Source: Alphaproteobacteria bacterium
Lineage (GTDB): Bacteria > Pseudomonadota > Alphaproteobacteria > UBA828
Length of the DNA stretch: 64,000 nt
NCBI GenBank assembly: GCA_965200925.1
Contig: OZ241738.1
Span: 491,891-555,890 of the forward strand
Direction: 5' to 3'
The notes beneath the pieces are model-generated. The model saw only the letters and a program-made list of their open reading frames with translations. It was not told where the DNA came from and made no database searches. Shown piece by piece: positions 5,221 to 36,321 of the stretch; position 1 is the first letter of the stretch, and each line of letters begins with the position of its first letter. Made by a program: the position numbers and the translations under genes.

Positions 5221-5286
5221 CGCGTTCTCCCGTCGTCGAATGCCCTTCGATATGCGGCGCCGGCGCGGGATTTCAAGGGGTTTCCT

Positions 5287-5312
5287 GTTTGCCGGCAAAC
5301 TTGCCGGCAAAC
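5287..5312. promoter_or_regulatory. Tandem palindromic operator-like site GTTTGCCGGCAAAC-TTGCCGGCAAAC in the divergent region upstream of brxA
   Basis: Perfect 14-bp palindrome followed by a second 10/12-bp copy with 12-bp periodicity. Located between the divergent hypothetical gene start (5220) and brxA start (5481). Confidence 0.4.
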
Positions 5313-5480
5313 ATATGGCCTGTCGTTGACGGAGCACCGGCGCCGTGGTAGCGACCAGCCGCCATGCACGGTCAGGCCGCATGTTCCTTTCGCCTCTCGC
5401 CGGACGCCGAGTCCCGCGCCGGGGCCGAAACGGCCGGCTTCCGCCTTGGGGCCAAAGGCACGCACACCAGCCGCACGATC

Positions 5481-6173
5481 ATGCTGGCGGAGCTGGAGGC
5501 GGTCCTGGCAGCGGCCGGTGCGGACGCCGCGCGGGCCGACTACGCGGCGGCGATCATTGAGACCAACTGTTTGTCGAAGCCTACCGCGGCGACGCGCCGG
5601 CTCTCGTGCCAGCGGCTGCGCGAGCTCCACGGGCTGGACCCGGCGCTGCCGCTGTTCCGCGTGCTCCGGCGCCTCTGGGCCTTCGATCCGGCGGGCCGCC
5701 CGCTTCTGGCCTTGCTGTCGGCGCTCGCTCGGGATCCGCTGCTTGCCGCCACCGTTCCCGCGATCGTGTCCCTGCCGCCCGGCGCCGATTTCCAGCGTGC
5801 GCCGATGAAGGCCGCGCTGCGGAGCGCCGTGGGCGAGCGCCTGAATGAGGCGGTCCTCGACAAGACCTGCCGCAACGCGGCCAGCAGCTGGACGCAATCG
5901 GGGCATCTCGAAGGGCGGACGTTCAAGAAGCGGCGGCGGGTCACGGCCTCCACGGCGGCCGTCGCCTTCGCCCTCTGGCTCGCCGGCGCCGCAGGCTGTC
6001 GCGGCGCTGGCGTCTTCGTCTCGGCGTGGCTGCGGCTGGCCGATTGCGGTCCCTCGCGGGCGCGCCGCCTGGCCCTGGAAGCGAAGCGGCTCGGCCTGAT
6101 CGACCTCCGGATGGCCGGCGATGTCGTCGAGCTCGACACGGCCCGGCTCGACCCCGCCGGAAGAGGGGTGTGA
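5481..6173 (+). CDS. brxA: BREX protein BrxA (DUF1819-like)
   Basis: First gene of a co-directional operon followed by BrxB and BrxC. Size ~230 aa; start ATG 5481 inside ORF 5364..6173. Assignment rests mainly on position and size. Confidence 0.55.
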   Translation: MLAELEAVLAAAGADAARADYAAAIIETNCLSKPTAATRRLSCQRLRELHGLDPALPLFRVLRRLWAFDPAGRPLLALLSALARDPLLAATVPAIVSLPPGADFQRAPMKAALRSAVGERLNEAVLDKTCRNAASSWTQSGHLEGRTFKKRRRVTASTAAVAFALWLAGAAGCRGAGVFVSAWLRLADCGPSRARRLALEAKRLGLIDLRMAGDVVELDTARLDPAGRGV

Positions 6174-6739
6174 CCGTGTCGCGCATCGAGGACCTCGCGG
6201 AAGCCTACGGCCGGCATATTGCGACGCCCTGGCAGCGGACGGTCGCCGGCGCCCAGCGTGTCGTGATGGTCGTCTACGACAAGGAGCAGGAGCGGATGCT
6301 GCGCGCCCGCAGGCTCGCCTTCGAGACCGCGACAAAGCGGGCCGGATACGCTTGGCTGGAGGTCGATCTGGCGCCGGCTTTCGCCGAATGGATGGCCGGC
6401 GACGAATACCGGGAGGCGTATTTCGCGACGCCCGAGGATCTGCGGCTGAAGCTCGACGCCGCGTTCCCGGACCATGTGGCCGGCCGCATCCGCGAGCGGC
6501 TGACTTCGGCGGACGCCACGGAGGCTTCCGTCGTCGCGGTCTTCGGCGCGGGCGCGCTCTTCGGCCTCGCGCGGGTCTCGCGAATCCTCGGCATGGTCGA
6601 GAGCGATATCCGCGGCCACCTCGTCCTTTTCTTCCCGGGTCAGTACGAACGGAACAACTACCGCTTGCTGGACGCGCGCGACGGCTGGAACTATCTCGCC
6701 GTGCCGATCACGCTGCGTGGCGCGGAGGAGCACGGATGA
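6170..6739 (+). CDS. brxB: BREX protein BrxB (DUF1788-like)
   Basis: ~190 aa. GTG 6170 overlaps the brxA stop (GTGA). Immediately precedes BrxC, whose ATG overlaps its stop (ATGA). Confidence 0.6.
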   Translation: MTVSRIEDLAEAYGRHIATPWQRTVAGAQRVVMVVYDKEQERMLRARRLAFETATKRAGYAWLEVDLAPAFAEWMAGDEYREAYFATPEDLRLKLDAAFPDHVAGRIRERLTSADATEASVVAVFGAGALFGLARVSRILGMVESDIRGHLVLFFPGQYERNNYRLLDARDGWNYLAVPITLRGAEEHG

Positions 6740-9700
6740 AGATCAAGGACGTCCTCCAGCGCGATCCTGCGGCGCACCCCCTCGTCAACAAGGGCCAGGC
6801 CCGGATCGCCGACCGCGAGGACGCGCAGGTGATGCGGGAGCTGCACGGCGAGCTCGCGACCTTCGTCTGCGAGGGCCAATATGCGGACGGCATCCAGAGG
6901 ATCGTCCGTTCGTTCCTCGACGATCTGGGCCGGACCAGCCAGCGCGGCGCCTGGGTCAGCGGCTTCTTCGGCAGCGGCAAGTCGCACCTCCTGAAGATGC
7001 TCTGCCACCTGTGGCGCAACACCGAATTCCCCGACGGGGCGACGGCGCGCAGCCTGGTTCCCGCGATCCCCGAAGATCTGGCCGCGCTGCTGCGCGAGCT
7101 CGACGTCGCCGCCCGGCGCGCCGGCGGCCTCATGGCCGCGGCCGGTTCGCTGCCCAGCGGCAGCACCGACCACGTGCGCCTCACCATCCTCGGGCTGCTG
7201 CTGCGCGCCGCCGGCCTGCCGGCGCAGTACCCCCAGGCCCGGTTCTGCCTGTGGCTGCACGCCGAGGGGCGCTTCGACGCCGTGAAATCCGCGGTCGAAG
7301 CGGAGGGCCGGCGCTTCGAGCGGGAGCTCAATGACCTCTATGTGAGCGGCGCGATCGCCCGCGCCGTCCTCGCCTGTGCCCCGTCCTTCGCGGCCGGCGA
7401 AGCCGAGGCCAGGCAAGCGATCAGGGCGCAATTCCCGCCCCAGGCCGCCGACATCGCGACGGCGGAGTTCCTGCGCACGGCCAAGGACGCCCTGGCGCAT
7501 GCTTCCGATAGTGAGGGCCGGGTGCCGTGCACACTCGTCGTGCTCGACGAAGTGCAGCAATATATCGGCGATTCGACCGAGCGTTCCATGCTCGTCACCG
7601 AAGTCGCGGAAGCCGTCGAAAAGCAGCTCGATAGCCACGTGATGATCGTCGGCGCGGGCCAGAGCGCGTTGACCGACGCGCCGCTCCTCCAGAAGCTGAT
7701 GGACCGCTTCACGATCCGCGTCCCGCTCTCCGACGCCGACGTGGAGACGGTCACCCGCAAGGTGCTGCTCCAGAAGAAACCCAGCGCCGTCGCCGCTCTG
7801 CGCGCGCTGCTCGAAAGGCACGGCGGCGAGATCTCGCGGCAACTCCAGGGGACCCGGCTGGGCGAGACCGCTGCGGACCGCGTGGCCCTTGCGGACGACT
7901 ACCCGCTGCTGCCGGTCCGCCGGCGTTTCTGGGACGCCTGCTTCCGCCAGATCGACGCGGCCGGCACCCACAGCCAGTTGCGTTCGCAGCTGCGCATCGT
8001 CCACGACGCCCTGGCCAGACTCTCCGACCGGCCGCTCGGCGCGGTCGTCGCCGGCGACGAACTGTTCGATGCGCTCGCGCCCGAGATGGTCAACACCGGC
8101 GTGCTGCTGCGGGAGATCAACGAACGGATCATCGAGGTCGGCGAGGCCGAAGGCGCGCTCGCGCGCCGCCTCTGCGGGCTGATCTTCCTGATCGGCAGGC
8201 TGGCGCGGGAGGCGGGAGCGGATACCGGCGTCCGGGCGACCGCAGACCACCTCGCCGATCTGGTCATCGACGATCTCGCCGCCGACAACGGCAAGCTCCG
8301 CAGCGCGGTCGAAACGACGCTCGGCAAGCTCGCCGGCAACGGCATCCTGATGCGGGTGGGCGAGGAATACCGCCTTCAGACCCGCCAGGGCGCCGAATGG
8401 GATCGGGAGTTCCGCAATCGGCAGACCCGCCTGAACAACGATTCCGCCGCGATCCAGCTTCGGCGCGACGCGCTTCTCCACGGAGAGATCGACAGGATCG
8501 TCCGCGGTCTGCGCATGGTCCAGGGGGCGGCGAAGGAACCCCGGCGCTTCGCCGTTCACCGGGGGGCGTCCCCGCCGCCCGCCGCCGACGGTTCCACGAT
8601 CCCGGTCTGGGTCCGCGACGGCTGGGCGGCGTCGGAGAAGGCGGCGGTGGAGGCGGCGCGGGCGGCGGGCGCCGCCGACCCGACGATTCACGTCTTCGTG
8701 CCCCGTCGTTCGGCGGACGATCTGCGCCGCCTGATCGTCGAGGCGGCCGCGGCCGAACAGGCGCTCGACGCGCGCGGCAACCCGACCGAGCCCGAAGGCC
8801 AGGAGGCGCGCCGGAGCATGGAGAGCCGTCGCGCCCGCGCCGAGGCCGGGCGCGACGCTCTGGTCCGCGACGTCGCCGCCAACGCCAAGGTCTTCCAGGG
8901 CGGCGGCAACGAGGTCCTTCTCGCGGCGCTGGAAGACCGCCTCCGGGCCGCCGGCGAGGACGCGCTCGCGCGCCTGTTCCCCCGCTTCAGGGAAGCCGAT
9001 GGCGCGGCGTGGCCGTCCGTCATCAAGCGTGCGCGTGACGGCGCCGACCACCCGCTCCAGCCGGTCGGGCACACGGACGCGGTGGAAAAGCACGCGGTCT
9101 GCCGGCAGGCGCTTGCCGAGATCGGCGTCGGCGCGTCCGGGGCCGCGTTGCGCAAGGCGCTGGCCGGCCCGCCCTTCGGTTGGCCGCGCGACGCCGTGGA
9201 CGCGGCGCTGATCGCGCTGCATCGCGCGCGGCATCTGTCCGCGACGCTGAACGGCGCGGCGCTCCCGCCAGGCGGGCTCGACCAGAACCGCATCGCGAAG
9301 GCGGCGTTCCGCGCCGAGCGCGCGGCCCTCTCGGTTCAGGATCGCTTGGTCCTGCGGAAGCTCTTCCAGGCCGCCGATCTTGCCTGCAAGAGTGGCGAGG
9401 AGGAAGCCCGGGCGAATGATTTCCTGGACACGCTTGCCGAACTCGCCCGTTCGGCCGGCGGTGAACCGCCGCTTCCCGTCCCGCCCGGTACGGTCGACGT
9501 CGAGGACGCGCGCCGGCTGGCCGGGAACGAACGGCTGGCGGCCATCCGCGACAAGGCCGACGAATGGGAAGGGAAGATCGCCGAGTGGCGCGCGGCGGCG
9601 AAGTCGATCGCCGCGCGTCTGCCGGCATGGCGCCTGGTCGAGCGGCTGGCGGCGCATGCCGAAGGGATCGAAGAGGCCGGGCCGCAGCGCCGCGAGGTGG

Positions 9701-10191
9701 CGGCGGTGCGCGACGGGCGGCAATTGCTGGCGGGCGCGGATCCGGCCGCCGCCATCCGCAAGGCGCTGGCGGACCTTCTCCGCGCTTCCGTCCGGGCCGG
9801 GTTCGAGGCCCTTGAGGCCGCCTTCGCCGAGGCCATGCGGACTCTCGACGCGAACGAAGCATGGCGAAAAGCCGCGCCCGCCGACCGCGAGGCGATCCTG
9901 AAAGAGGCGGGGCTGGCCGCACCGGCGAAGCCGGAGGTCGCGACCGACGAAGCCCTGGCCGACTGCCTCGACCGGCGCTCCCTTGCGGGCGTCCGCGCCG
10001 AGATCGACGCCGTCCCGGCACGCGCGGCCCGTGCCGTCGAGCGGGCGGCCCGGCTGCTGGAACCGAAGGTCCGCCCGGTCGCCCTGGAGCGGGCCACCTT
10101 GCGCGACGCCGCCGAGGTCGAGGCGTGGGCCGAGCGCCAGAAGAAGGCGCTGCTCGAAGCCGTCGCCGACGGCCCGGTGCTGGTGAATTGA
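6736..10191 (+). CDS. brxC: BREX P-loop ATPase BrxC/PglY (~1150 aa)
   Basis: MKIKDVLQRDP... N-terminus with Walker A GFFGSGKSHLLKMLCHLW. Large size and position between BrxB and PglX. Confidence 0.85.
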   Translation: MKIKDVLQRDPAAHPLVNKGQARIADREDAQVMRELHGELATFVCEGQYADGIQRIVRSFLDDLGRTSQRGAWVSGFFGSGKSHLLKMLCHLWRNTEFPDGATARSLVPAIPEDLAALLRELDVAARRAGGLMAAAGSLPSGSTDHVRLTILGLLLRAAGLPAQYPQARFCLWLHAEGRFDAVKSAVEAEGRRFERELNDLYVSGAIARAVLACAPSFAAGEAEARQAIRAQFPPQAADIATAEFLRTAKDALAHASDSEGRVPCTLVVLDEVQQYIGDSTERSMLVTEVAEAVEKQLDSHVMIVGAGQSALTDAPLLQKLMDRFTIRVPLSDADVETVTRKVLLQKKPSAVAALRALLERHGGEISRQLQGTRLGETAADRVALADDYPLLPVRRRFWDACFRQIDAAGTHSQLRSQLRIVHDALARLSDRPLGAVVAGDELFDALAPEMVNTGVLLREINERIIEVGEAEGALARRLCGLIFLIGRLAREAGADTGVRATADHLADLVIDDLAADNGKLRSAVETTLGKLAGNGILMRVGEEYRLQTRQGAEWDREFRNRQTRLNNDSAAIQLRRDALLHGEIDRIVRGLRMVQGAAKEPRRFAVHRGASPPPAADGSTIPVWVRDGWAASEKAAVEAARAAGAADPTIHVFVPRRSADDLRRLIVEAAAAEQALDARGNPTEPEGQEARRSMESRRARAEAGRDALVRDVAANAKVFQGGGNEVLLAALEDRLRAAGEDALARLFPRFREADGAAWPSVIKRARDGADHPLQPVGHTDAVEKHAVCRQALAEIGVGASGAALRKALAGPPFGWPRDAVDAALIALHRARHLSATLNGAALPPGGLDQNRIAKAAFRAERAALSVQDRLVLRKLFQAADLACKSGEEEARANDFLDTLAELARSAGGEPPLPVPPGTVDVEDARRLAGNERLAAIRDKADEWEGKIAEWRAAAKSIAARLPAWRLVERLAAHAEGIEEAGPQRREVAAVRDGRQLLAGADPAAAIRKALADLLRASVRAGFEALEAAFAEAMRTLDANEAWRKAAPADREAILKEAGLAAPAKPEVATDEALADCLDRRSLAGVRAEIDAVPARAARAVERAARLLEPKVRPVALERATLRDAAEVEAWAERQKKALLEAVADGPVLVN

Positions 10192-12011: not shown

Positions 12012-12100
12012 GGCGATGAGCGCGCTTTCGCGGGAATCGCGCCGGGCGCTGGAGAGGGCCGTCCGCAAGGCCCGCGCCGCCGCCGAAGCGGGCGCGGGCA
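11984..12100. repeat. ~117-bp direct duplication, copy A, spanning the DUF4276-1 3' end and the first 28 codons of pglX (near-identical copy B at 14003-14119)
   Basis: gcggccgtcgcggcggggtgaggcgatgagcgcgctttcgcgggaatcgcgccgggcgctggagagggccgtccgcaaggcccgcgccgccgccga is identical in both copies, then 2 mismatches and divergence after gggcaag. Confidence 0.85.
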
Positions 12101-12132
12101 AGATGAAGTTGGGGGGAGGGGAGGAGAGATGA
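12016..12132 (+). pseudogene. pglX 5' stub (MSALSRESRRALERAVRKARAAAEAGAGK + 9 unrelated codons); insertion scar
   Basis: Translation is identical to the first 28 residues of full-length PglX at 14025. Terminates after KLGGGEER; its stop overlaps the ATPase-2 start (ATGA). Confidence 0.7.
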
Positions 12133-14002: not shown

Positions 14003-14119
14003 GCCGTCGCGGCGGGGTGAGGCGATGAGCGCGCTTTCGCGGGAATCGCGCCGGGCGCTGGAGAGGGCCGTCCGCAAGGCCCGCGCCGCCGCCGAGGCGG
14101 GTGCGGGCAAGGCGCTGGA
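14003..14119. repeat. ~117-bp direct duplication, copy B (covers the start of functional pglX)
   Basis: See copy A at 11984-12100. Confidence 0.85.
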
Positions 14120-17100
14120 AAGCCTCGCGGTCGGCCGCCGCGAACCTTGGGAGTCGATGACGCCGGACGGCCGCGCGCTGCGCAACCGGCTGCGCGCCCA
14201 CGGGCGGCATCTCGGCGACCGGCGCGACCCCCGGAGCGGCACACAGGCGAGCGGCCGGCTGATGCGGGAATGCGCCTACGAGCACTGGCACCGGATGCTG
14301 TTCGCCCGCTTCCTCGCCGAGGCCGGCCTGCTGATCGAGCCGGAAACCGGCGTCGCCGTCACCCTCGCCGAGGCGAAGGAGCTCGCCCGCGCCACCGGCG
14401 ACCGACCACTGGCCACCGGCGACCGACCACTGGCCACCGGCGACCGACCACTGGCCACCGGCGACCGACCACTGGCCACCGGCGACCGACCACTGGCCAC
14501 CGGCGACCGACCACTGGCCACCGGCGACCGACCACTGGCCACCGGCGACCGATCACTGGCCACCGGCGACCGACCACACGACTGGCTGGCGCTGGCCGGC
14601 GCCTGGGCCGGGCGGATGCTGCCGCAGATCTTCCGCGCCGGCGACCCGGTTCTCGACGTCGCCTTGCCGCCGGAAACGCGGGCCGACCTCGAAGCGCTGC
14701 TGGAGGGGCTGCCGCGCGCGACCTTCCTCGCCGACGACAGCCTCGGCTGGGTCTACCAATTCTGGCAGGCGGACAGGAAGGAGGCGGTCAACCGCTCCGG
14801 CGTCAAGATCGGCGCCGACGAGCTCCCGGCCGTCACCCAGCTCTTCACCGAGGATTACATGGTCCTGTTCCTGCTCCACAACACGCTGGGCGCGTGGTGG
14901 GCGGGCAAGGTGCTGGCGGCGCGCCCCGGCCTCGCGCAATCGGCCGGAAGCGAGGAGGAACTGCGCGAAGCCTGCAAGGTCGGCGCCGTGGAGTGGCGCT
15001 ATCTGCGCTTCGTCCGCGCGGAGGGGGAAGATGGCGCACCCGGCCCGTGGCGCCCGGCGGCGGGCGCGTATCCCGGCTGGCCGCGCGCGGCGAAGGACGT
15101 GACGCTGTGCGACCCGTGCATGGGTTCGGGGCATTTCCTGGTCTTCGCCCTGCCGATCCTCGCCGCGTTGCGCATGGCGGAGGAGGGGCTTTCGCGGGAG
15201 GCGGCGACGGACGCCGTGTTGCGCGACAACCTCTTCGGCCTGGAGATCGACCCGCGCTGCACGCAGATCGCCGCCTTCACCCTCGCCTTCGCCGCGTGGC
15301 GCATGGCGGGATACCGCTCGCTGCCGGCGCTGAACCTCGCCTGTTCCGGCCGCGCCGTCGGCGCGTCGAAGGCGGAATGGCGGCGGCTGGCGGAGAGGGC
15401 CGCCGCGGCCGCCGACCCGGCCGCCGCCCGCGACCCGCTCGGCGCGGAGGAGACCTTGCGCGCGGCCGGCGTCGAAGAGCGCGTGAAGAACGGGCTCGAG
15501 GCGCTGCACGAATTGTTCGCCCAGGCGCCGGCGCTCGGCAGCCTGATCGACCCGCGCCGGGTGAGCGGCGACATCCTGACCGCGGATTTCGAGGCGCTGG
15601 AGTCGTTGCTGGGCGTGGTTCTCAAGGCGGCGGAGAACGACAGTGAGACCGCGGAGATGGCCGTCGCCGCGCAGGGCATGGCGAAGGCGGCGGAACTCCT
15701 GGGGCGGCGCTTCACGCTGGTGGTGACGAACGTGCCCTTCCTCGGGCGCGGCAAGCAGGACAGGGTGTTGCAGGACCATCTGGCGGTGCATTTCGACGAC
15801 GCGAAGCGCGATCTCGCCACCGCCATGCTTCGCCGCCTGCTGGGCTTCGCGGATACGGGCGGGGTGGTCGCCGCCGTTACGTCGCAGAATTGGCTGTTCC
15901 TGAAGTCCTACGCGAAGCTGCGCAAGCGCGTGTTGCGGGAAACGACATTGAACGTCGTCGCCGCGCTCGGGCCACGCGCGTTCGAGACCATCAGCGGCGA
16001 GGTCGTGAATACCGCCCTGGTAACACTCACCGCCACCTCGCCGCCAAGCGATGCGGCCTTTGCTAGCCTGGACACCAACGACGGTGCGGATGCGGCCGCG
16101 AAAGCGCGGGCGCTGTCGCAGGGGGAGCTATCGCTGCCGGCGCAGGCGGCGCAGAACGCGAATCCGGTTTCTAACCCTGATCTTGTTATTGGATATGAAA
16201 GCAAAGAAGGAACTCAAACCCTTGATAGCGTAAGTTATTGCTATCAGGGCTTGGCGACCAGCGATAATTCCCAATTTGTTATCAACTTTTGGGAACTTGC
16301 AAGGATTTCTGGTGGCTGGGAACCATTCCAAATGACATCCGATGGGACATCAACCTTGAGCGGATGCTCTTGGATAATCCATTGGGAGAACGGCGAAGGT
16401 CGTTATGCACGACATGCGAAGGCTCTAAAAAAGGCAGGAAGGCTTGGAGGATGGAAATCAGGCCATGAGGCTTGGGGGAAGGTTGGCGTCGCAGTCAACA
16501 GAATGAAAGATCTTCCATGTTCTCCATATTTCGGTACAATGTTCGATTGTAATGTTGCTGTTATTATACCTGACGATCCTGAAGATTTCTCGTGGATTTG
16601 GGCACAGGTTCGGACTTCTGAGTATTCAAAAGAGGTTCGTCGACTGAACCGGAATGTTAGTGTGGCCAATCTGACGTTGATCAGGGTGCCGATTGATGAA
16701 AAAATTCGTAGAGCCGATTCATTTCCTAACTTGAGCGCAGCGCAGTGCCCCAACCCGACGCAATGGCTGTTCGACGGACACCCCGCCCGCGCGGACGCAC
16801 CGCTGCAGGTCGCCGCCGCCCGCCTGTGCGGCTATCGCTGGCCACGCCAGACCGGCTCCAGCTTCATGGATTGCCCAACCGTCGGCCCCGACGGGCTCGA
16901 GCGCCACGCGGACGCCGACGGCATCGTCTGCCTCGCCGCCATCGCCGGCGAGGCCCCGGCGCACGAACGGCTGGCCGCGCTGCTCACCGACGCCTTCGGC
17001 CCCGATTGGTCGGCGGCCCGGTTCGCCGGCCTGCTCGCCGAGGCGGGCTTCGCCGGCAAGAGCCTCGACGACTGGCTCCGCGACGGCTTCTTCGCCCAGC

Positions 17101-17735
17101 ACTGCAAGCTGTTCCGCCACCGCCCCTTCGTCTGGCACGTCTGGGACGGCCGCCGCGACGGCTTCCACGCGCTGGTCAACTGCCACCGCCTCGCCGCGCC
17201 CGGCGGCGAAGGCCGGCGCACGCTGGAGAAGCTGATCTGGTCCTGTCTCGGCGCCTGGATCGACCGCCAGCGGGCCGAACGGGACGCGGAAACCGAAGGC
17301 GCCGACGCCCGCCTCGCCCACGCCGAACACCTGCGCGCCGAACTCGTCAAGGTCCTCGAAGGCACGCCGCCCTACGACCTCTTCGCCCGCTGGAAGCCGC
17401 TCCACGAACAACCCCTCGGCTGGGAGCCGGACGCGAACGACGGCGTGCGCGTCAACATCCGCCCCTTCATGACCGCCCGCCCCCTCGCCGCCAGGGCAAG
17501 GAACGCTTGCATCCTGCGCACGACGCCCAACATCCACTGGCGCAAGGACCGCGGCAAGGAGCCCCGGCGGGAGAAGGCCGACCACCCCTGGTTCTGGAGC
17601 CGCAACCCGGACGACCCTGCCCACGAAGTCGATTTCCCCGGTGGCGCGGATTTCGACGGCAACCGCTGGAACGATCTGCACTACACTCGCGCCGCCAAAG
17701 AAGCCGCGCGGGCGGCGGAAGGAGAAGGCCGATGA
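14025..17735 (+). CDS. pglX: BREX adenine-specific DNA methyltransferase PglX (~1236 aa)
   Basis: N6-adenine MTase motifs DPCMGSGHFLVFA and VVTNVPFLG. Size and position. ATG 14025 chosen inside ORF 13824..17735. Confidence 0.85.
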   Translation: MSALSRESRRALERAVRKARAAAEAGAGKALESLAVGRREPWESMTPDGRALRNRLRAHGRHLGDRRDPRSGTQASGRLMRECAYEHWHRMLFARFLAEAGLLIEPETGVAVTLAEAKELARATGDRPLATGDRPLATGDRPLATGDRPLATGDRPLATGDRPLATGDRPLATGDRSLATGDRPHDWLALAGAWAGRMLPQIFRAGDPVLDVALPPETRADLEALLEGLPRATFLADDSLGWVYQFWQADRKEAVNRSGVKIGADELPAVTQLFTEDYMVLFLLHNTLGAWWAGKVLAARPGLAQSAGSEEELREACKVGAVEWRYLRFVRAEGEDGAPGPWRPAAGAYPGWPRAAKDVTLCDPCMGSGHFLVFALPILAALRMAEEGLSREAATDAVLRDNLFGLEIDPRCTQIAAFTLAFAAWRMAGYRSLPALNLACSGRAVGASKAEWRRLAERAAAAADPAAARDPLGAEETLRAAGVEERVKNGLEALHELFAQAPALGSLIDPRRVSGDILTADFEALESLLGVVLKAAENDSETAEMAVAAQGMAKAAELLGRRFTLVVTNVPFLGRGKQDRVLQDHLAVHFDDAKRDLATAMLRRLLGFADTGGVVAAVTSQNWLFLKSYAKLRKRVLRETTLNVVAALGPRAFETISGEVVNTALVTLTATSPPSDAAFASLDTNDGADAAAKARALSQGELSLPAQAAQNANPVSNPDLVIGYESKEGTQTLDSVSYCYQGLATSDNSQFVINFWELARISGGWEPFQMTSDGTSTLSGCSWIIHWENGEGRYARHAKALKKAGRLGGWKSGHEAWGKVGVAVNRMKDLPCSPYFGTMFDCNVAVIIPDDPEDFSWIWAQVRTSEYSKEVRRLNRNVSVANLTLIRVPIDEKIRRADSFPNLSAAQCPNPTQWLFDGHPARADAPLQVAAARLCGYRWPRQTGSSFMDCPTVGPDGLERHADADGIVCLAAIAGEAPAHERLAALLTDAFGPDWSAARFAGLLAEAGFAGKSLDDWLRDGFFAQHCKLFRHRPFVWHVWDGRRDGFHALVNCHRLAAPGGEGRRTLEKLIWSCLGAWIDRQRAERDAETEGADARLAHAEHLRAELVKVLEGTPPYDLFARWKPLHEQPLGWEPDANDGVRVNIRPFMTARPLAARARNACILRTTPNIHWRKDRGKEPRREKADHPWFWSRNPDDPAHEVDFPGGADFDGNRWNDLHYTRAAKEAARAAEGEGR
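14391..14577 (+). repeat. In-frame 21-bp tandem repeat (gccaccggcgaccgaccactg, ~8.9 copies) encoding (ATGDRPL)n within pglX
   Basis: Eight perfect or near-perfect copies from 14391 (copy 8 carries a C>T giving P>S) plus a partial ninth. Translation ATGDRPL x7, ATGDRSL, ATGDRPHDW. Confidence 0.9.
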
Positions 17736-20494: not shown

Positions 20495-20503
20495 GGCGCG
20501 GCG

Positions 20504-21706
20504 ATGGAATGGGCGAACGTACTGCGACGCATAGAAGCGGGCGAAGACCGAACCACCGAGTTCAAGCGGGAGCTCGGAAACGACCTGTCCGCCGTCGGCA
20601 AGGCGATTTGCGCGTTCGCGAACGGTGAAGGCGGCTTGATCGTCCTTGGAATCGACGACGCGGGATCCATCATCGGGCTGAACGCAGATCCGCACAAGGT
20701 GCATGAGCGATTGACCGATTTCCTGCAAACCGGATGCAGCGCGCCGGTCGGGGCGCGCTATGGACGGCACGAGGTCGCGAACGGCTGGGTCCACTGGATC
20801 GAGGCGCCCCGCATCCGGGGACCGGAACCGCTTCGCTACCGCGGGCGCACCTACATTCGCCGCGAACGAAGCAGCGTGGAGCCCTCTCCCCACGAGCTTC
20901 AGGAATTGTTCAACGCCTTCGGCTTTGTCTTAACCGAAGAACAGGCGATTCTGGCGGCGAGTGTCGAAGACATCGATATCAAGTCGTTCCGGTCGTTCCT
21001 GCGCAGACGGGGGCTCGAAACGGAGGAAGAGCCGCAACCCTCGATCGAGGACGATCTGCGCAATGCCCGCGTTCTGCGCGACGTCGACGGAACGCTTCGC
21101 CCCACTCTCTACGGGCTGATGGTCTTCGGCCGGGATCCCCAGGCGCATCCGCACACCGGAAGCTTCTGGATCCAATGCACCGCCTATGCGGGCCGCGACC
21201 GGGCGTCGGACGTCATCCTGGTCGGGGAGGGCAAGGGGCACCTCGACGAACAGGTGCGCCGGGCGCTCGGCTGGCTGAAGAGCCTGGGGTGGACCGAATC
21301 CTATCCCGGCATCCTTCGCGAGGATCGCCCGCTGATCCCCGAACCCGCGGTTCGCGAAGCGCTGGTGAACGCCGTCGCCCACCGCGACTACGCGCTCATC
21401 GGCTCGCCCGTGCAGCTCGAAGTGTTCCGCGACCGGGCCGCCGTCACCAGCCCCGGCACGCTCCCCAACCACATGACGGTCGAAAACGTCCGGTTCGGCG
21501 GTCTCCCACGCTCCCGCAACGAGTGGATGGCGAACGCCATGGTCGTGGCGCGCCTGATGGAAAAGCGGGGGCTCGGTTGGCTCAGGATGCGCCGCGAAAT
21601 GCAGGCGTTCAACGGCACCGAACCGGAACTGGTCAACGACGAAGGCGGCAAATTCGTCCGCGTGACCTTCCGCCTGAAGCCGGAACCCGCCGGGGAAAAA
21701 GCGTGA
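20504..21706 (+). CDS. AlbA_2/Schlafen-like divergent-AAA ATP-binding protein with C-terminal HATPase_c_4-like region (putative nucleic-acid-binding)
   Basis: N-terminus ...EDRTTEFKRELGND...AICAFANGEGGLIVLGIDDAGSIIGL is typical of the AlbA_2 (Schlafen group) domain. 400 aa. The PglZ GTG start overlaps its stop. Confidence 0.5.
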   Translation: MEWANVLRRIEAGEDRTTEFKRELGNDLSAVGKAICAFANGEGGLIVLGIDDAGSIIGLNADPHKVHERLTDFLQTGCSAPVGARYGRHEVANGWVHWIEAPRIRGPEPLRYRGRTYIRRERSSVEPSPHELQELFNAFGFVLTEEQAILAASVEDIDIKSFRSFLRRRGLETEEEPQPSIEDDLRNARVLRDVDGTLRPTLYGLMVFGRDPQAHPHTGSFWIQCTAYAGRDRASDVILVGEGKGHLDEQVRRALGWLKSLGWTESYPGILREDRPLIPEPAVREALVNAVAHRDYALIGSPVQLEVFRDRAAVTSPGTLPNHMTVENVRFGGLPRSRNEWMANAMVVARLMEKRGLGWLRMRREMQAFNGTEPELVNDEGGKFVRVTFRLKPEPAGEKA

Positions 21707-24030
21707 CGACCGCCACCCTGATCGACGCGATCCGCGAGTCGATGGCCGCGAGCCTGCACGGGCCGGACGGCGCGGAACCGCCCGCCGCCCTGCTCTGGAC
21801 CGACCCGGACGGCCAGTGGCGGCCGCTGATCCCCGCGCTCATGAAGGCGCTGCCAGAACTCTACGCCCTCGGCGCCTACGCGCCCGCGGAACGGCGCGGA
21901 CCGGTCATCTGGCTCAAATGCGTCGTCGAACGGACCCTGCCCGACGCGGCGCCGGAAGTGGGCGCGACGCCGGTCCTCTACCTGCCCGAGGTGGGGCGCC
22001 AGACGCTGCGGGCCGCCGACGATTGCGACGCCACGCTCCAGCCGCTGGTCGAGCTGCAATATCGCGGCGCCGTCTGGCATCAGCGCAACGGCCGCGACTG
22101 GACGGTCGAGGCGTTCCTCGCTTCCGACGACGCGCTCGGGCTCGACGTGGCGCGCGACGCGGCGACCCGCGCCGCCGCGTTGCGCGCCCTGCCCTTGCTG
22201 GCGGCGGAGCCGGTCGCGACGCTGCGCGGCCGCCGGCTCGAGGCGGAGGATTTCGACCGCCTGTCGATCGGCGATCCGATCCGCGATCTGTTGACCTGGA
22301 TGAGCGACGCCGCGGCGTTCGAGGCGGACTGCGACCCGGACCGCTGGGCGGCGTTTCGCGACGTCTGCGCGCGCGAATTCGCGTTCGACCCGGAGACGGA
22401 CGGCCTCCGCGCCGCCGCGGACACGCTGGCCGCGGGCGGCGGCAAGTGGAACGAGGCTTGGCGGCGTTTCTGCGATGTGCCGCTGCTTTACCCCGGTATT
22501 CCCGCCGTTCTGCGCACGGCGCGGCCCAAGGACCTGTTGCACCCGGTCGAACCGTCCCGCCGGCCGGGCCTGAACGAGGAGCGGGAAGACCGGCTTCGCG
22601 CGGCGCTGGAAGCGGCCGCCGGGCTTCCCCACGCCGACGCCTGCGACAGGGTCGCGGCGCTGGACGACGAACACAGGGAACGCCGCGGCTGGGTGTGGGC
22701 ACAGCTCGGCGAGAGCCCCTGCGCGTTGGCGCTGGAGCCGCTCGGCCGCCTCGCCCGCGCGGCGAAGCGCGAGGCGGAGGCCGCCTCGGCCGAAGCGCTG
22801 GCCGCGGACTACGCCACGCAAGGGTGGCGCTGCGACCGGGCGGCGATCGAGGCGCTGGCCTGCCCCAAACCCGGCGCCGGACACGGTCTCGTCACCAGCG
22901 TCGTGCGGGCGCTGTACGAACCGTGGCTCGACCGCGCGGCGCGGCGCTTCCAGAGCCTGCTTTCCGCCGGGCATCCCGATCCGGGCGCGTTGACGAGCGG
23001 CGTCGACGCCGAACCCGGGGTCTGCATCCTCTTCGCCGACGGGCTGCGCTTCGATCTCGGGGCCATGCTGGGCGAGCGGCTGGAGGCGCGCGGCGTCCGG
23101 GTGCGGCTCGGGCATCGCATGGCGCCGATCCCGACCGTGACCGCCACTGCGAAGCCGCTGGCTTCCCCCGCCCATGCGGCCTGTGCCGGCGCGGCGAGCG
23201 CGGAGGATTTCTGCCCCGCGGTTGCCGGCGCCGGCAAGCCGGCGACCGCCGCGCGGCTTCGCGCCCTCATGGTGCGGCAGGGCATCGCGATTCCGGAGGC
23301 CGGCGAAATACCCATGGCGCTCGACGGCGGCGCCGGCGCCTGGATGGAAACGGGAAAGATCGACACGCTCGGCCATTCCCTGGACGCCGCACTCGCCCGC
23401 CAGATCGACGCGGAGATCGACGCCATCGCCGACCGTGTCGATGCGCTTCTCGCGGCCGGCTGGCGCAAGGTCCGGGTCGTGACCGATCACGGCTGGTTGC
23501 TGCTTGCGGGCGGATTGCCGCGGGTCGATCTGCCGCCGTCGTTGGTCGAAACCAAATGGTCCCGCTGCGCCGCCGTTCGAGGCGAGTCGGAACCCGTCGT
23601 TCCCACCTACCCGTGGCACTGGGACCCGTCGCTGCGGATCGCCTCGCCGCCGGGAATCGGCGCCTTCCGTGCCGGCACGGAATACGCCCACGGCGGCGTC
23701 AGTCCCCAGGAATGCGTCGTGCCCGATTTGCTCGCGGAGCGCGACGCGGCCGTCGCCGCCGCGCGGATAACGAGCGTGGTCTGGCGTGGGATGCGCTGCC
23801 GGATCGCCGTCGAGACCGGCGCGCCGGGGGCGAAAGTCGACCTGCGGCTCAACCGCAGGCAGGCCGAATCCAGCATCGCCGCCGCGGTCCGGGCGCTGAA
23901 CGATGCCGGCGAGGCGAGCCTCGTCGTTCCCGACGACGAGCACGAAGGCGCCGCGGCCCTGGTCGTGGTTCTGGACGAAGCGGGGCGGGTGCTCGACGAC
24001 CGCCCGACCACCGTCGGCGACGGAGGGTGA
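21703..24030 (+). CDS. pglZ: BREX alkaline-phosphatase-superfamily protein PglZ (~775 aa)
   Basis: N-terminus LIDAIRESMAASLHGPDG...LLWTDPDGQW. PglZ-domain motif VVTDHGWLLL. Position before brxL. Start GTG 21703 (alternative ATG 21742). Confidence 0.85.
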   Translation: MTTATLIDAIRESMAASLHGPDGAEPPAALLWTDPDGQWRPLIPALMKALPELYALGAYAPAERRGPVIWLKCVVERTLPDAAPEVGATPVLYLPEVGRQTLRAADDCDATLQPLVELQYRGAVWHQRNGRDWTVEAFLASDDALGLDVARDAATRAAALRALPLLAAEPVATLRGRRLEAEDFDRLSIGDPIRDLLTWMSDAAAFEADCDPDRWAAFRDVCAREFAFDPETDGLRAAADTLAAGGGKWNEAWRRFCDVPLLYPGIPAVLRTARPKDLLHPVEPSRRPGLNEEREDRLRAALEAAAGLPHADACDRVAALDDEHRERRGWVWAQLGESPCALALEPLGRLARAAKREAEAASAEALAADYATQGWRCDRAAIEALACPKPGAGHGLVTSVVRALYEPWLDRAARRFQSLLSAGHPDPGALTSGVDAEPGVCILFADGLRFDLGAMLGERLEARGVRVRLGHRMAPIPTVTATAKPLASPAHAACAGAASAEDFCPAVAGAGKPATAARLRALMVRQGIAIPEAGEIPMALDGGAGAWMETGKIDTLGHSLDAALARQIDAEIDAIADRVDALLAAGWRKVRVVTDHGWLLLAGGLPRVDLPPSLVETKWSRCAAVRGESEPVVPTYPWHWDPSLRIASPPGIGAFRAGTEYAHGGVSPQECVVPDLLAERDAAVAAARITSVVWRGMRCRIAVETGAPGAKVDLRLNRRQAESSIAAAVRALNDAGEASLVVPDDEHEGAAALVVVLDEAGRVLDDRPTTVGDGG

Positions 24031-24032
24031 CG

Positions 24033-26081
24033 ATGGAACTCGACCGTCTGGACGAACTGGCCGCCGCCGCCTTCGATGGCTACCTGGTGCGCAAGGATCT
24101 GGTCCGCAGATACGCGCGCCAGTACCCGGTGCCGACCTACGTCGTCGAATTCCTCCTCGGGCGCTACTGCGCGAGCGTCGACGAGGCGGAGATCGAAGAA
24201 GGGCTGCGCATCGTCGAACGGTTGCTGAAGGACCGGACCGTCCGCACCGGCGACGAGGAGCTGTTCAAGGCGCGGGCGCGGGAGAACGGGTCGATCCGCC
24301 TCATCGATCTGGTCAAGGCGCGGCTGGACGCGCGCAACGATTGCTATGTCGCCGAACTGCCCAGCCTGAATCTGCGCCACGTCCGCATCGACGACGAACT
24401 CGTCGGCGACAACGAGCGCATGCTGACCGACGGCTTCTATGCCGAGGTCACGCTCGGCTACGACGGCGTCATCGCTCAGGAGAAGGATGGGCGGCCTTTC
24501 AAGGCGGAGGCACTGCGGCCGATCCAGATGTCGAAGCCGGATGTGCTCGACGTCTACGCCGGCGCGCGGCGCGGGTTCGCGACCGGCGAGTGGATCGATT
24601 TCCTGCTGCGCTCCGTCGGCCTGGAGCCGGCGGCGTTCGACGAGCGCGCGAAGCGGGTGGCGCTGCTGCGCATGGTCCCGTTCGTGGAGCGGAACTACAA
24701 TCTGGTGGAGCTCGGGCCGCGCGGGACCGGCAAGAGCCATCTCTTCCAGCAGATATCGCCCTACGCGCATCTGGTTTCCGGCGGCAAGGCGACCGTCGCC
24801 AAGATGTTCGTCAACAACGCCAACGGCCAGCGCGGCCTGGTCTGCCGCTACGACGTGGTCTGCTTCGACGAGGTCGCCGGCATCTCCTTCGACCAGAAGG
24901 ACGGCGTCGGCATCATGAAGGGCTACATGGCCTCGGGCCAGTTCAGCCGCGGCAAGGAGAACATCCGTGCCGACGGCAGCTTGGTGATGGTCGGCAACCT
25001 GGATGCCGACATCGAGCAGCAGCAGCGGATCGGCCATCTGTTGCGCCCGCTACCGCCCGAGATGCGGGACGACACCGCGTTCATGGACCGCCTGCATGCG
25101 TTCGCGCCGGGCTGGGACTACCCGAAGCTCGCGCCGGGTGCGCATCTGACCGACCATTTCGGCCTCGTCAGCGATTTCCTCAGCGAGTGCTGGAGCCGGC
25201 TGCGCAGCGGCAACCGCGTCTCTGCGATGCAGAGCCGGGTGCATCTGGGCGGCGCGTTGAGCGGGCGCGACATCGAGGCGGTCAACAAGACCGTCGGCGG
25301 CCTCATCAAGCTGCTGTTCCCGGACCCGGACATGCCGGTCGCCGACGACGATCTCGAATGGACCGTGCGGCTGGCCCTGGAAGCGCGCCGCCGCGTCAAG
25401 GAACAGCAGAAGCGCGTCTTCAAGAGCGAGTTCCGCAACACCCATTTCAGCTACATCCTGGGTACGGAGGGCGTCGAGCGGTTCGTGGCGACGCCGGAGC
25501 TGCACAGCGACGAGGCGATCGACAGCGACCCGTTGCCGCCGGGGCAGGTCTGGGGCGTCGGCGCCGGGTCGGGCGGCGCCGGGGCCGGCCTCTACCGCAT
25601 CGACGTCACCTGCGGTCCGGGCGGCGGCGTGCGCATCCTGAACCAGCCGACTCCGCCCGCGTTCCGAGAGAGCGTGCGGGTGGGCGAACAGAACCTGTAT
25701 GCGCGGGCAAAGCAGCTGGTCGGCGACCGCAACCCGCGCGAGGACGAGTTCACGGTCCAGATGCGTCCCATGGACGCCACCATGTCGGGCGAGGGGCTGG
25801 GGGTGCCGGTGCTGGTCGCCCTCTGCGGGGCCCTGCTCGGCCGCAACACCCGCGGCGGCGCCATCGTCGCCGGGGCGCTCAATCTCGGCGGCTCGATCGA
25901 GCCGGTCCCGAACGCGGCGCGGGTCGCGGAGCTCGCCGTCGACAAGCAGGCCCAGACGCTGCTGATGCCCGTCTCCGCGCGCCGGCAGCTCGACGACTTG
26001 CCCGACGATCTGTGGACCAGGATCAACATCGAGTTCTACAAGGACGGCCCCGACGGCGTATTCAAGGCGCTGATGGAGTGA
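24033..26081 (+). CDS. brxL: BREX Lon-like protease BrxL (~682 aa)
   Basis: MELDRLDELAAAAFDGYLVRKDLVRRYARQYPVPTYVVEFLLGRYC N-terminus. AAA+ Walker A GPRGTGKSHLFQQISPYA. Lon-like C-terminus. Last gene of the operon. Confidence 0.85.
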   Translation: MELDRLDELAAAAFDGYLVRKDLVRRYARQYPVPTYVVEFLLGRYCASVDEAEIEEGLRIVERLLKDRTVRTGDEELFKARARENGSIRLIDLVKARLDARNDCYVAELPSLNLRHVRIDDELVGDNERMLTDGFYAEVTLGYDGVIAQEKDGRPFKAEALRPIQMSKPDVLDVYAGARRGFATGEWIDFLLRSVGLEPAAFDERAKRVALLRMVPFVERNYNLVELGPRGTGKSHLFQQISPYAHLVSGGKATVAKMFVNNANGQRGLVCRYDVVCFDEVAGISFDQKDGVGIMKGYMASGQFSRGKENIRADGSLVMVGNLDADIEQQQRIGHLLRPLPPEMRDDTAFMDRLHAFAPGWDYPKLAPGAHLTDHFGLVSDFLSECWSRLRSGNRVSAMQSRVHLGGALSGRDIEAVNKTVGGLIKLLFPDPDMPVADDDLEWTVRLALEARRRVKEQQKRVFKSEFRNTHFSYILGTEGVERFVATPELHSDEAIDSDPLPPGQVWGVGAGSGGAGAGLYRIDVTCGPGGGVRILNQPTPPAFRESVRVGEQNLYARAKQLVGDRNPREDEFTVQMRPMDATMSGEGLGVPVLVALCGALLGRNTRGGAIVAGALNLGGSIEPVPNAARVAELAVDKQAQTLLMPVSARRQLDDLPDDLWTRINIEFYKDGPDGVFKALME

Positions 26082-36298: not shown

Positions 36299-36321
36299 GC
36301 GAGCCCTGGGGACGAACAGCG

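What the first reader, a model, noticed from the sequence alone, without database searches (positions are those of the whole stretch)
16165..16740. ~575-bp in-frame low-GC (~42%) segment inside the C-terminal half of pglX: candidate swapped specificity (TRD-like) module
pglX is ~70% GC except for this block (…ggatatgaaagcaaagaaggaactcaaacccttgatagcgtaagttattgc…). The reading frame stays open and the encoded ~190 aa (residues ~715-905) lie downstream of the MTase catalytic motifs, where PglX target recognition is thought to reside. The sharp compositional boundaries point to recent recombination with a donor of very different GC. That would be a domain swap potentially changing the BREX recognition motif, analogous to TRD shuffling in Type I/IIG systems.
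Basis: seen in the sequence. Interest (0 to 1): 0.7.

Follow-up and report, generated by a model that had tools for sequence, protein, structure and literature searches.

The report
Swapped target-recognition module in BREX PglX
The low-GC block is the complete DNA-recognition domain of the BREX phage-defence methyltransferase, recently replaced by recombination with a foreign version, which most likely changes the DNA motif the cell marks as self; the kind of event is known, but this case is unusually clear.

Summary
Observation confirmed; interpretation supported. Window 16166-16752 is in frame inside pglX (14025-17735). It has 45.7% GC and GC3 0.40, against 72.6% and 0.89 for the rest of the gene. 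It is the lowest-GC 576-bp stretch in the 64 kb.

The block (residues 714-905) is the target-recognition domain (TRD). A family profile aligns it to the TRD of Salmonella PglX (662-849), and an AF2 model of the block finds PglX/BrxX and other gamma-class adenine methyltransferases with solved structures.

Closely related metagenomic BREX islands are collinear with the window over ~24 kb at 93-98% identity. There are two breaks: a 21-bp tandem repeat and exactly this block (16165/16753).

Two backbone lineages each carry three TRD types. The low-GC type is shared by the window and a 92%-identical backbone at 97.6% identity (p=4e-7). Across 119 homologues, TRD identity does not track backbone identity (r=-0.02).

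Distant relatives of this TRD type sit at host-like GC elsewhere, so the low GC is not intrinsic. No donor, silent cassette or invertase was found, and the motif change is inferred, not shown.

This is a clean natural example of TRD cassette exchange, established for Type I/IIG enzymes and expected for PglX. Interest is moderate.

The parts
14025..17735 (+). pglX (brxX), BREX type 1 adenine methyltransferase and specificity factor, 1236 aa, intact
   Evidence: ORF and translation; PADLOC PglX PDLC02528 1376 bits and Pfam Eco57I/N6_Mtase; phmmer hits to PglX/BrxX structures 8c45, 9ewz, 8zek.
16166..16752 (+). Replaced TRD cassette ('TRD-A'), residues ~714-909. Low-GC core 16166-16745 (45.7% GC, GC3 0.40).
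   Evidence: Composition. The blastn alignments of L002 and L010 to the window stop at 16165 and resume at 16753. Profile alignment to the Salmonella PglX TRD. AF2 model plus Foldseek.
16140..16166 (+). Left recombination anchor, conserved hinge sequence encoding AQAAQNANP (family consensus Q..Q..NPD). All four compared alleles are identical up to ...GCGAATCCGG.
   Evidence: Junction alignment; near-invariant Q707, Q710, D719 in A1; coordinates.
16749..16772 (+). Right recombination anchor, conserved start of the C-terminal domain encoding PNPTQWLF (family consensus DPTQWLF).
   Evidence: Junction alignment; near-invariant Q913, W914, F916 in A1; coordinates.
16245..16265 (+). QGLATSD motif inside the TRD. 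It aligns with Salmonella PglX 684-690 (AGMSTGD), which contains A684 and S687, the positions engineered for second-base recognition (E. coli K681/D684).
   Evidence: HMM alignment printed, read against PMC11842806. Residue-level equivalence is uncertain at ~14% identity.
15975..16004 (+). Methyltransferase-domain loop RAFETISGEV (residues 651-660), equivalent to Salmonella PglX 591-600 (last-base recognition loop). It is polymorphic among the closest relatives (HGFESAAAAG in P0002 and P0006).
   Evidence: Alignments; PMC11341690 names loop 591-600.
15726..15740 (+). Catalytic motif IV, TNVPF (a variant of NPPY; 45 of 120 homologues have F, 73 have Y)
15111..15137 (+). SAM-binding motif I, DPCMGSGHF
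5364..10191 (+). brxA (5364-6173), brxB (6176-6739), brxC (6736-10191)
   Evidence: PADLOC BrxA 306 bits, BrxB 245 bits, BrxC 1392 bits; ORFs intact.
21703..26081 (+). pglZ (21703-24030) and brxL (24033-26081)
   Evidence: PADLOC PglZ 901 bits, BrxL 944 bits; Pfam BrxL_N and BrxL_ATPase.

Best explanation
The block is the entire target-recognition domain (TRD) of the BREX type 1 methyltransferase PglX. A foreign allele has replaced the resident one by double-crossover homologous recombination. The crossovers fall in two conserved anchors: the hinge motif ...Q..Q..NP(D) and the start of the C-terminal domain, (D)PTQWLF.

The incoming allele (TRD-A) still has the codon usage of a roughly 40-50% GC source. 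It therefore arrived recently in this ~70% GC lineage, a Rhodospirillales-like alphaproteobacterium. It has since moved between at least two diverged backbone lineages of the same species complex, or entered both from the same source. Whether the window received it directly from the low-GC source or from a relative is unresolved.

How it works (inferred from the E. coli and Salmonella structures and mutagenesis): PglX is the only sequence reader of BREX. Its TRD reads the first four bases of the 6-bp site and a methyltransferase-domain loop reads the last base. Exchanging the TRD therefore re-targets host methylation and phage exclusion together, in one step. The N-terminal, catalytic and C-terminal parts that dock with BrxB, BrxC and PglZ are untouched.

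Shown here: the composition, the breakpoints, the domain identity and the incongruent distribution. Inferred: the change of motif and its selection by phages.
For: Composition: GC 45.7% and GC3 0.40 against 72.6% and 0.89; expected 63.5% under host codon usage.

Domain identity: profile alignment to Salmonella PglX through residue 849. Foldseek best hit 8c45_B (E 1e-6, 194 columns), plus CamA, M.BseCI, 9ewz_C, M.TaqI and HsdS. Published domain limits.

Breakpoints: L002 and L010 are collinear with window ~2.7/4.0-27.7 kb at 91-98% identity. The only breaks are at the 21-bp repeat and at 16165/16753; the junction alignment is.

Incongruence: backbones {W, P0002, P0006} and {P0001, P0003, P0004} each carry TRD types A, B and C. 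W and L001 differ at 14/580 sites in the TRD against 200/2550 in the flanks (Fisher p = 3.7e-7); at third positions 6/194 against 90/850.

Family-wide: r = -0.02 between TRD and backbone identity, 52 TRD clusters among 119 sequences, and 81% of pairs with 90-95% backbone identity have TRDs below 50% identity.

Not intrinsic: TRD-A relatives have host-like GC in L012 (GC3 0.91), L015 and L014.

Independent assemblies: the same low-GC TRD in a high-GC backbone appears in the window and in L001, which come from different assemblies.
Against: No donor was found. The nearest TRDs other than P0001 are at most 74% identical and sit in 56-64% GC hosts. The TRD alone found no relative above 32% identity in plasmids and no DNA match in phages, and only a 30%-identical relative in GTDB representative genomes.

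Donor searches were imperfect. The 50%-identity representative library collapses this PglX clade, and the word-indexed segment search returned only short fragments.

The change of recognition motif is not demonstrated, since there are no methylation data.

TRDs B and C are also GC3-poor (0.63-0.74) relative to the backbone (0.90). Some general bias of this domain, beyond recent transfer, cannot be fully excluded.

The relatives are metagenome assemblies, so strain-level linkage relies on contig integrity.
Confidence: 0.85

Rival explanations
1. Two-step history. The low-GC allele entered the species complex once, some time ago. The window obtained it from a related high-GC strain (L001-like) by ordinary intraspecific homologous recombination, not directly from a low-GC donor. 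This refines the best explanation rather than contradicting it; it concerns only who the immediate donor was.
For: TRD-A is 97.6% identical between two backbones that differ by 8%. The related strains come from one metagenome series, two of them from the same sample (L002 and L011, both ERZ23495669). The tract of elevated identity ends at the same anchors in both.
Against: The 365 bp left of the block is at the backbone level of divergence between W and L001 (92.3%), so no longer imported tract betrays an L001-like donor. GC3 of 0.40 and 0.375 shows almost no amelioration in either copy.
Confidence: 0.5
2. In-place rapid divergence. The TRD is simply the fastest-evolving part of PglX, and its odd composition reflects its amino-acid content or relaxed codon selection, with no transfer.
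For: The TRD is the most variable part of PglX/BrxX (PMC11842806; consensus). The TRD is poorer in GC3 than the backbone in all ten loci of this clade. The block has less Ala, Arg and Leu and more Ser, Ile, Asn and Lys than the rest of the protein.
Against: GC3 is 0.40 against 0.89, with boundaries sharp to a few bases. Amino-acid content predicts 63.5% GC, not 45.7%. Flanks 95-98% identical cannot coexist with an unalignable 580 bp under gradual divergence. The TRD is more similar than the backbone between W and L001. Two backbones carry three TRD types each. Homologous TRDs at GC3 0.91 exist elsewhere.
Confidence: 0.03
3. Assembly artefact: a chimeric join of reads from a low-GC organism's pglX into a high-GC contig.
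For: The window's exact PglX sequence is absent from the 15-billion-protein collection. The relatives are metagenomic.
Against: The join is in frame at both ends and falls exactly at domain boundaries. Length is conserved (192 aa against 183-192 in relatives). The same mosaic occurs in an independent assembly on a backbone differing by 8% (L001). The surrounding 64 kb is ordinary chromosome (SRP RNA followed by dnaX).
Confidence: 0.02
4. Programmed switching. The block is one state of a local shufflon (invertase plus silent partial pglX copies) or of a diversity-generating retroelement.
For: Programmed inversions that switch the middle part of PglX while keeping both termini constant are documented in Lacticaseibacillus and Brevibacterium (PMC9881135).
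Against: There is no second copy of any part of pglX in the 64 kb, by tblastn with the whole protein or by blastn with 15501-17300. No recombinase lies inside the cluster. A retroelement would not change codon usage over the whole domain.
Confidence: 0.02

Closest known systems
TRD of E. coli HS BrxX (PDB 9EWZ; TRD 651-837) and Salmonella D23580 PglX (PDB 8C45; TRD 662-849)
   Same: Same position in the same four-part protein (N-terminal bundle, gamma-class N6-adenine methyltransferase, TRD, C-terminal domain). Same fold by Foldseek and a continuous profile alignment. Same six-gene BREX type 1 operon. In those proteins this domain reads the bases, and point changes in it alter the BREX motif.
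   Different: Only 11-15% sequence identity within the TRD. The window's protein belongs to a different, high-GC alphaproteobacterial PglX clade with NVP(Y/F) in place of NPPY. The recognised motif is unknown.
TRD exchange in Type I HsdS and Type IIG/IIL (MmeI-family) restriction-modification enzymes
   Same: A specificity domain bounded by conserved sequence is replaced as a unit by recombination. The result is mosaic genes, TRD trees that disagree with backbone trees, and atypical composition of the TRD. HsdS and M.TaqI-type TRDs are also structural neighbours of the block.
   Different: Here the TRD is one internal domain of a 1236-aa single-chain methyltransferase, not a separate S subunit. 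The enzyme works in a non-cleaving exclusion system that needs BrxB, BrxC and PglZ.
Programmed-inversion switching of the middle part of PglX (Lacticaseibacillus rhamnosus, Brevibacterium casei; Milman et al., NAR 2023, PMC9881135)
   Same: The same region of the same protein is the unit of variation, and both termini are kept constant.
   Different: That mechanism is intragenomic, reversible, and needs an invertase plus silent copies. The window has neither. Variation here is between strains, by allelic replacement, and includes an allele of foreign composition.

Membership tests
BREX type 1 PglX/BrxX methyltransferase | Gamma-class N6-adenine methyltransferase motifs I (GxG) and IV ((N/D)PP(Y/F)-like) | tested here: met
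   DPCMGSGHF at residues 363-371 and TNVPF at 568-572. Pfam Eco57I above its cutoff. 45 of 120 homologues have NVPF and 73 have NVPY.
BREX type 1 PglX/BrxX methyltransferase | Encoded in a brxA-brxB-brxC-pglX-pglZ-brxL cluster | tested here: met
   All six genes are present and intact with strong PADLOC scores. Two accessory gene blocks are embedded.
BREX type 1 PglX/BrxX methyltransferase | Sequence and architecture homology to solved PglX/BrxX (N-terminal, methyltransferase, TRD and C-terminal domains) | tested here: met
   phmmer hits 8zek, 8c45 and 9ewz at E ~1e-41. The profile reaches E 1e-60 and covers residues 306-849/865 plus the C-terminal region. PADLOC PglX model covered 126-1123 of 1125.
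BREX type 1 PglX/BrxX methyltransferase | Methylates the fifth-position adenine of a 6-bp asymmetric motif and is required for phage exclusion | not testable with these tools
   Needs a methylome and phage assays.
Target-recognition domain of gamma-class adenine methyltransferases (PglX, MmeI, CamA, M.TaqI, HsdS type) | Alpha/beta TRD fold placed directly after the catalytic domain | tested here: met
   AF2 model with pLDDT 86.5 and pTM 0.80. Foldseek: 44 PDB hits at E<=1e-3, which are PglX, BrxX, CamA, M.BseCI and M.TaqI chains; an HsdS chain follows at E 3e-3.
Target-recognition domain of gamma-class adenine methyltransferases (PglX, MmeI, CamA, M.TaqI, HsdS type) | Makes the base-specific DNA contacts | not testable with these tools
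   Inferred from 9EWZ and the mutagenesis in PMC11842806 and PMC11341690. At ~14% identity, residue-level mapping is only approximate.
TRD cassette exchange by homologous recombination | Sharp breakpoints in conserved flanks, with near-identical sequence on both sides | tested here: met
   Flanks 95-98% identical and the block ~45% (unalignable) against L002 and L010. Breaks at 16165 and 16753.
TRD cassette exchange by homologous recombination | TRD phylogeny incongruent with backbone phylogeny | tested here: met
   Two backbones carry three TRD types each. W-L001 TRD 97.6% against flanks 92.2%, p = 3.7e-7. r = -0.02 over 7021 pairs.
TRD cassette exchange by homologous recombination | Exchange changes the recognised sequence | not testable with these tools
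   TRD-A is 33-38% identical to TRD-B and TRD-C, which makes a different motif likely but unproven.
Programmed-inversion PglX shufflon | Silent partial pglX copy or copies in inverted orientation plus an adjacent invertase | tested here: not met
   No second pglX-like sequence in the 64 kb. No recombinase in the cluster.
Diversity-generating retroelement target | Template repeat near-identical to the variable region, plus a reverse transcriptase | tested here: not met
   blastn of 15501-17300 against the window returns only itself. A reverse transcriptase was not searched for systematically.

The most novel reading that the evidence does not exclude
TRDs of this PglX clade may behave as a free-circulating cassette pool. 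They would cross large GC (hence taxonomic) distances independently of the rest of BREX, always entering at the same two anchors (NP(D) and (D)PTQW). The TRD is depleted in GC3 in all ten sampled loci of the window's own clade, and the breakpoints recur at identical positions. Together these could reflect a dedicated vehicle or mechanism, for example fragmentary pglX carried by mobile elements or phages, or a recombination hotspot at the anchors. The alternative is that selection simply filters random homologous recombination. If so, BREX specificity would be a community-level shared resource, and the natural junctions would be ready-made design rules for re-targeting BREX.
Probability: 0.12. 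Interest if true: 0.65.

Novelty: new member of a known kind. Interest (0 to 1): 0.4.

Why it matters
PglX is the sole specificity determinant of BREX, so swapping one domain re-targets self-marking and phage exclusion together.

Here, closely related strains from one metagenome series carry at least three TRD alleles and two variants of the last-base loop on near-identical BREX backbones; two of the alleles come from the same sample. This is the pattern expected if phages impose diversifying, frequency-dependent selection on BREX motifs.

It also gives exact natural chimera junctions: after ...AQNANP, and before PTQWLF. These could guide engineered TRD transplants. The published attempts read here were point mutations, plus loop swaps that lost defence (PMC11842806).

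The compositional contrast (GC3 0.40 in a 0.89 gene) is an easily scanned signature for finding such events elsewhere. It does not reveal a new mechanism.

Tried and rejected
- Segment-only search of the 5.8-billion-protein index. It returned two short fragments. P0121 lies on a 1.3x long-read contig with a frameshifted pglX, so it is not an orphan cassette. The search missed even P0001 (95% identical in the block), so it was uninformative about donors.

- HMMER scan of 1.84 billion representatives with the segment. It gave 578 hits, the best at 69%. Because that library collapses proteins above 50% identity, the whole PglX clade is hidden behind a few representatives, so the result cannot exclude closer TRD-A copies.

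- Genome contigs and the first metagenome-contig scan with the single segment: only a 30% relative, then nothing. The second metagenome scan used a TRD-A alignment. It found relatives at 54-63% identity, useful for the composition comparison, but no donor.

- Plasmids by tblastn (best 32%) and phages by blastn (nothing).

- Search for silent cassettes or repeats in the window: none.

- Promoter and terminator scan of 15-18 kb, to test whether the AT-rich block creates intragenic signals: no promoter-like site, and terminator-like sites at chance level.

- Polarising the 14 W/L001 differences for amelioration. They are balanced (six AT-to-GC each way by my count), so they say nothing.

- Recovering the source genome through DnaX. 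P0273 is 100% identical and lies on a 3.5-Mb contig, but the contig is not retrievable. The nearest named relatives are Rhodospirillales MAGs at 71-73%.

- Residue-level prediction of the recognised motif from the alignment to Salmonella PglX. Abandoned as unsafe at ~14% identity.
Full report
**The observation**

The window averages 69% GC. Inside the 1236-aa ORF at 14025-17735, 200-bp windows fall from 63-79% GC to 43-55% between about 16100 and 16800, then return to 67-76%.

It is the lowest 576-bp window of the whole 64 kb (z = -4.6). The next lowest is an intergenic patch near 29.6-30.1 kb.

Codon-position analysis shows this is not an amino-acid effect. GC3 is 0.40 in the block and 0.89 in the rest of the gene. 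The same peptide written in the gene's own codon usage would be 63.5% GC. GC3 in 30-codon windows drops from 70-100% to 30-43% for residues 721-900 and recovers to 83% at residue 901. The frame is open throughout.

**The gene and its setting**

The ORF is PglX/BrxX: PADLOC PglX 1376 bits covering the model end to end, and Pfam Eco57I. It has motif I DPCMGSGHF and motif IV TNVPF. The F variant is present in 45 of 120 homologues.

It sits in a complete, intact BREX type 1 cluster:
- brxA 5364-6173
- brxB 6176-6739
- brxC 6736-10191
- pglX 14025-17735
- pglZ 21703-24030
- brxL 24033-26081

Two AAA_21 + DUF4276 pairs (PADLOC HEC-01A/B) lie between brxC and pglX. A 920-aa ATPase plus a Schlafen/AlbA_2 protein lie between pglX and pglZ. 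These blocks are ~62-63% GC.

The region is chromosomal: an SRP RNA at 36198-36289 is followed by dnaX. The nearest named DnaX relatives are Rhodospirillales MAGs at 71-73% identity.

**What the block encodes**

phmmer aligns the protein to the solved PglX/BrxX chains only up to query residue 665 and again from 1013. A profile of 119 homologues aligns continuously to Salmonella PglX 306-849.

The published domain limits are TRD 662-849 in Salmonella PglX (hinge 654-659) and TRD 651-837 in E. coli BrxX (PMC11341690, PMC11842806). Allowing for the 60-residue repeat insertion in the window's N-terminal region, residues 714-905 correspond to the hinge end plus the whole TRD. The last TRD strand (LIRVPID, 885-891) aligns with Salmonella ...ASVPY849.

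An AlphaFold2 model of residues 690-930 is confident (pLDDT 86.5, pTM 0.80). Its best PDB match is Salmonella PglX (8c45_B, E 1e-6, 194 columns, TMq 0.56). This is followed by CamA, M.BseCI, E. coli BrxX bound to DNA (9ewz_C) and M.TaqI, with an HsdS subunit just past the E<=1e-3 cut-off (3e-3). The block is therefore a homologous TRD, not an insertion, linker or mobile element. Its length (192 aa) matches the 183-192 aa of relatives.

**Evidence for replacement by recombination**

Per-region identities among the 120 best homologues are strikingly mosaic. P0002 is 99% identical over residues 191-400 and 97% over 1051-1236, but 36% over 714-905. P0001 is ~90% identical overall but 95% in the block. 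In 20-residue windows the drop begins at ~710 and ends at ~905-910.

At DNA level the window and L002 (contig of P0002) are 97-100% identical in most 60-bp windows of pglX, apart from a mosaic stretch at 15465-16165, but 18-57% in the block. The window and L001 (contig of P0001) are 93-100% identical in the block and 83-98% outside it.

Whole-island blastn shows L002 and L010 collinear with window ~2.7/4.0-27.7 kb at 91-98% identity. There are exactly two interruptions: the 21-bp tandem repeat and 16165/16753. The junction alignment places the left break just after ...GCGAATCCGG (about 16165) and the right break within 16741-16755. Both lie in sequences conserved across the family: Q..Q..NPD and DPTQWLF.

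**Incongruence**

Nucleotide and protein matrices define two backbone lineages: {W, P0002/L002, P0006/L010} at 94-97% and {P0001/L001, P0003/L009, P0004/L011} at 96-97%. They also define three TRD types:
- A: {W, P0001}
- B: {P0002, P0003, P0005, P0007}
- C: {P0004, P0006, P0012}

Each backbone carries all three types.

W and L001 differ at 14/580 sites in the TRD against 200/2550 in the flanks (Fisher p = 3.7e-7). At third positions the counts are 6/194 against 90/850. TRD-A therefore coalesces more recently than the backbones that carry it. L002 and L011 come from the same metagenome sample.

Across 7021 pairs of 119 full-length homologues, TRD identity is uncorrelated with backbone identity (r = -0.02). 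There are 52 TRD clusters at >=60% identity. Of pairs with 90-95% backbone identity, 81% have TRDs below 50% identity. Cassette replacement is the rule in this clade.

**Is the low GC intrinsic?**

In all ten loci of this clade the TRD has lower GC3 than the rest of the gene: TRD-B 0.69-0.74, TRD-C 0.63-0.66, and other loci 0.44-0.58, against backbones of 0.62-0.91. TRD-A in W and L001 is by far the most extreme, at 0.40 and 0.375 against 0.90.

A metagenome scan with a TRD-A alignment found relatives at 54-63% identity. Some have composition equal to their hosts: L012 GC3 0.91 in 66-68% GC flanks, L015 62% against 62-63%, L014 52% against 51-56%. Others look foreign: L013 50% against 66-68%.

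The fold and family therefore do not demand low GC. The window's block keeps the codon usage of a roughly 40-50% GC source and has hardly ameliorated. No donor was found, with the caveats on search design given under 'tried and rejected'.

**Mechanism**

The structures and mutagenesis show three things. BrxX/PglX is the only DNA-sequence reader of BREX. The TRD reads the first bases of the 6-bp site and an MTD loop (Salmonella 591-600) reads the last base. Changing TRD residues changes both the methylated motif and the phages excluded.

The inference is that replacing residues 714-905 re-targets the whole system in one step while preserving the N-terminal, catalytic and C-terminal parts. TRD-A is only 33-38% identical to TRD-B and TRD-C, so a different motif is likely but unproven.

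The MTD loop is also polymorphic among the closest relatives. The window, P0001, P0003 and P0004 have RAFETISGEV. P0002, P0006, P0007 and others have HGFESAAAAG, and this assorts independently of TRD type. There appear to be two exchangeable specificity elements.

**Rivals**

- In-place divergence is contradicted by the GC3 step, the base-sharp boundaries, the near-identical flanks and the incongruence.
- An assembly chimera is unlikely. The joins are in frame at domain boundaries, and the same mosaic recurs in an independent assembly on a diverged backbone.
- A shufflon or a diversity-generating retroelement is not supported. No second pglX-like sequence exists in the window, and no recombinase lies in the cluster.
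- Still open is whether the window received TRD-A directly from a low-GC organism or second-hand from a relative.

**Comparison with what is known, and novelty**

[quoted passage not shown] Programmed inversions that switch the middle of PglX while keeping both termini are documented (PMC9881135). TRD exchange is classical for Type I HsdS and Type IIG enzymes (established knowledge, from my own recall).

In the papers I searched and read I found no description of natural inter-strain TRD cassette replacement in PglX with a compositional discontinuity. The phenomenon is nonetheless expected. I rate it a new member of a known kind, with moderate interest. Its value lies in the clarity of the example, the population-level two-backbones-by-three-TRDs picture, and the exact natural junctions.

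Noticed in passing
window 14391-14577 (inside pglX, residues ~123-185): [quoted passage not shown] Copy number varies among relatives: none in P0001, P0003 and P0004, one in P0005, two in P0002/L002, and at least six around a 100-N scaffold gap in L010. Only one of 120 homologues has more than one copy. It cannot switch the frame, so any effect would be on the protein, not on/off phase variation.
   Followed up: partly
window 15975-16004 (PglX residues 651-660): The methyltransferase-domain loop equivalent to Salmonella PglX 591-600 (last-base recognition) exists in two very different versions among near-identical backbones: RAFETISGEV here, HGFESAAAAG in P0002 and P0006. It assorts independently of TRD type, so it looks like a second exchangeable specificity element. 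The surrounding 15801-16165 is only 75% identical to L002, against 95-97% elsewhere.
   Followed up: partly
window 10204-13969: Two tandem AAA_21 ATPase + DUF4276 gene pairs (PADLOC HEC-01A/B) are embedded between brxC and pglX at ~62% GC. Relatives carry two pairs (L002), one pair (L001, L007, L009, L010, L011) or none (L003). The brxC-pglX junction is therefore a variable cargo site.
   Followed up: partly
window 17732-21706: A 920-aa ATPase (weak PADLOC Ppl and AAA_21 matches in its C-terminal part) and a 400-aa Schlafen/AlbA_2 + HATPase_c_4 protein are embedded between pglX and pglZ at ~63% GC. They are present in L002, L009, L010 and L011 and absent in L003 and L007. Function not examined.
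   Followed up: no
pglX of L002, L003, L006, L007, L008, L009, L010 and L011 (TRD against the rest of the gene): In every sampled locus of this PglX clade the TRD has lower GC3 than the rest of the gene (deficit 0.16-0.54). More distant TRD-A relatives (L012, L014, L015) match their hosts. This suggests continual import of TRDs into high-GC hosts, though a general bias is not excluded.
   Followed up: partly
window ~29800-30150: The second-lowest GC patch of the window (37-47% in 200-bp windows) lies in an otherwise intergenic gap. On the minus strand (30103-29930) it holds a 57-codon ORF, MSQKQTSRFCSHCNERVLATGQKPNHILHLLLFVLTFGLWIVVWILVTVGKINNYRL. It has a CxxC pair followed by a hydrophobic stretch that looks like a membrane span. 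Not searched against any database.
   Followed up: no
L002 and L011 (both from sample ERZ23495669); L001, L002, L010 and L011 (all PANK22-1 metagenome series): Related strains from one metagenome series carry different pglX TRD alleles; two of the alleles (TRD-B and TRD-C) come from the same sample, on backbones 89-93% identical at protein level. This is population-level BREX specificity polymorphism.
   Followed up: partly
window 4093-5382 (-), and the same position in L002, L009 and L010: A DUF6765 gene flanks the BREX island on the left in the window and in all three long relatives. The island therefore sits at a fixed chromosomal site and the backbone is inherited vertically. Upstream are glycosyltransferase and methyltransferase genes at 60-66% GC (3-5 kb).
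   Followed up: no
window 36198-37986: Bacterial small SRP RNA (Rfam RF00169, 60 bits) lies immediately upstream of dnaX. The DnaX protein is 100% identical to a database protein on a 3.55-Mb contig whose DNA could not be retrieved. The window's exact PglX sequence is not in the 15-billion-protein collection.
   Followed up: partly
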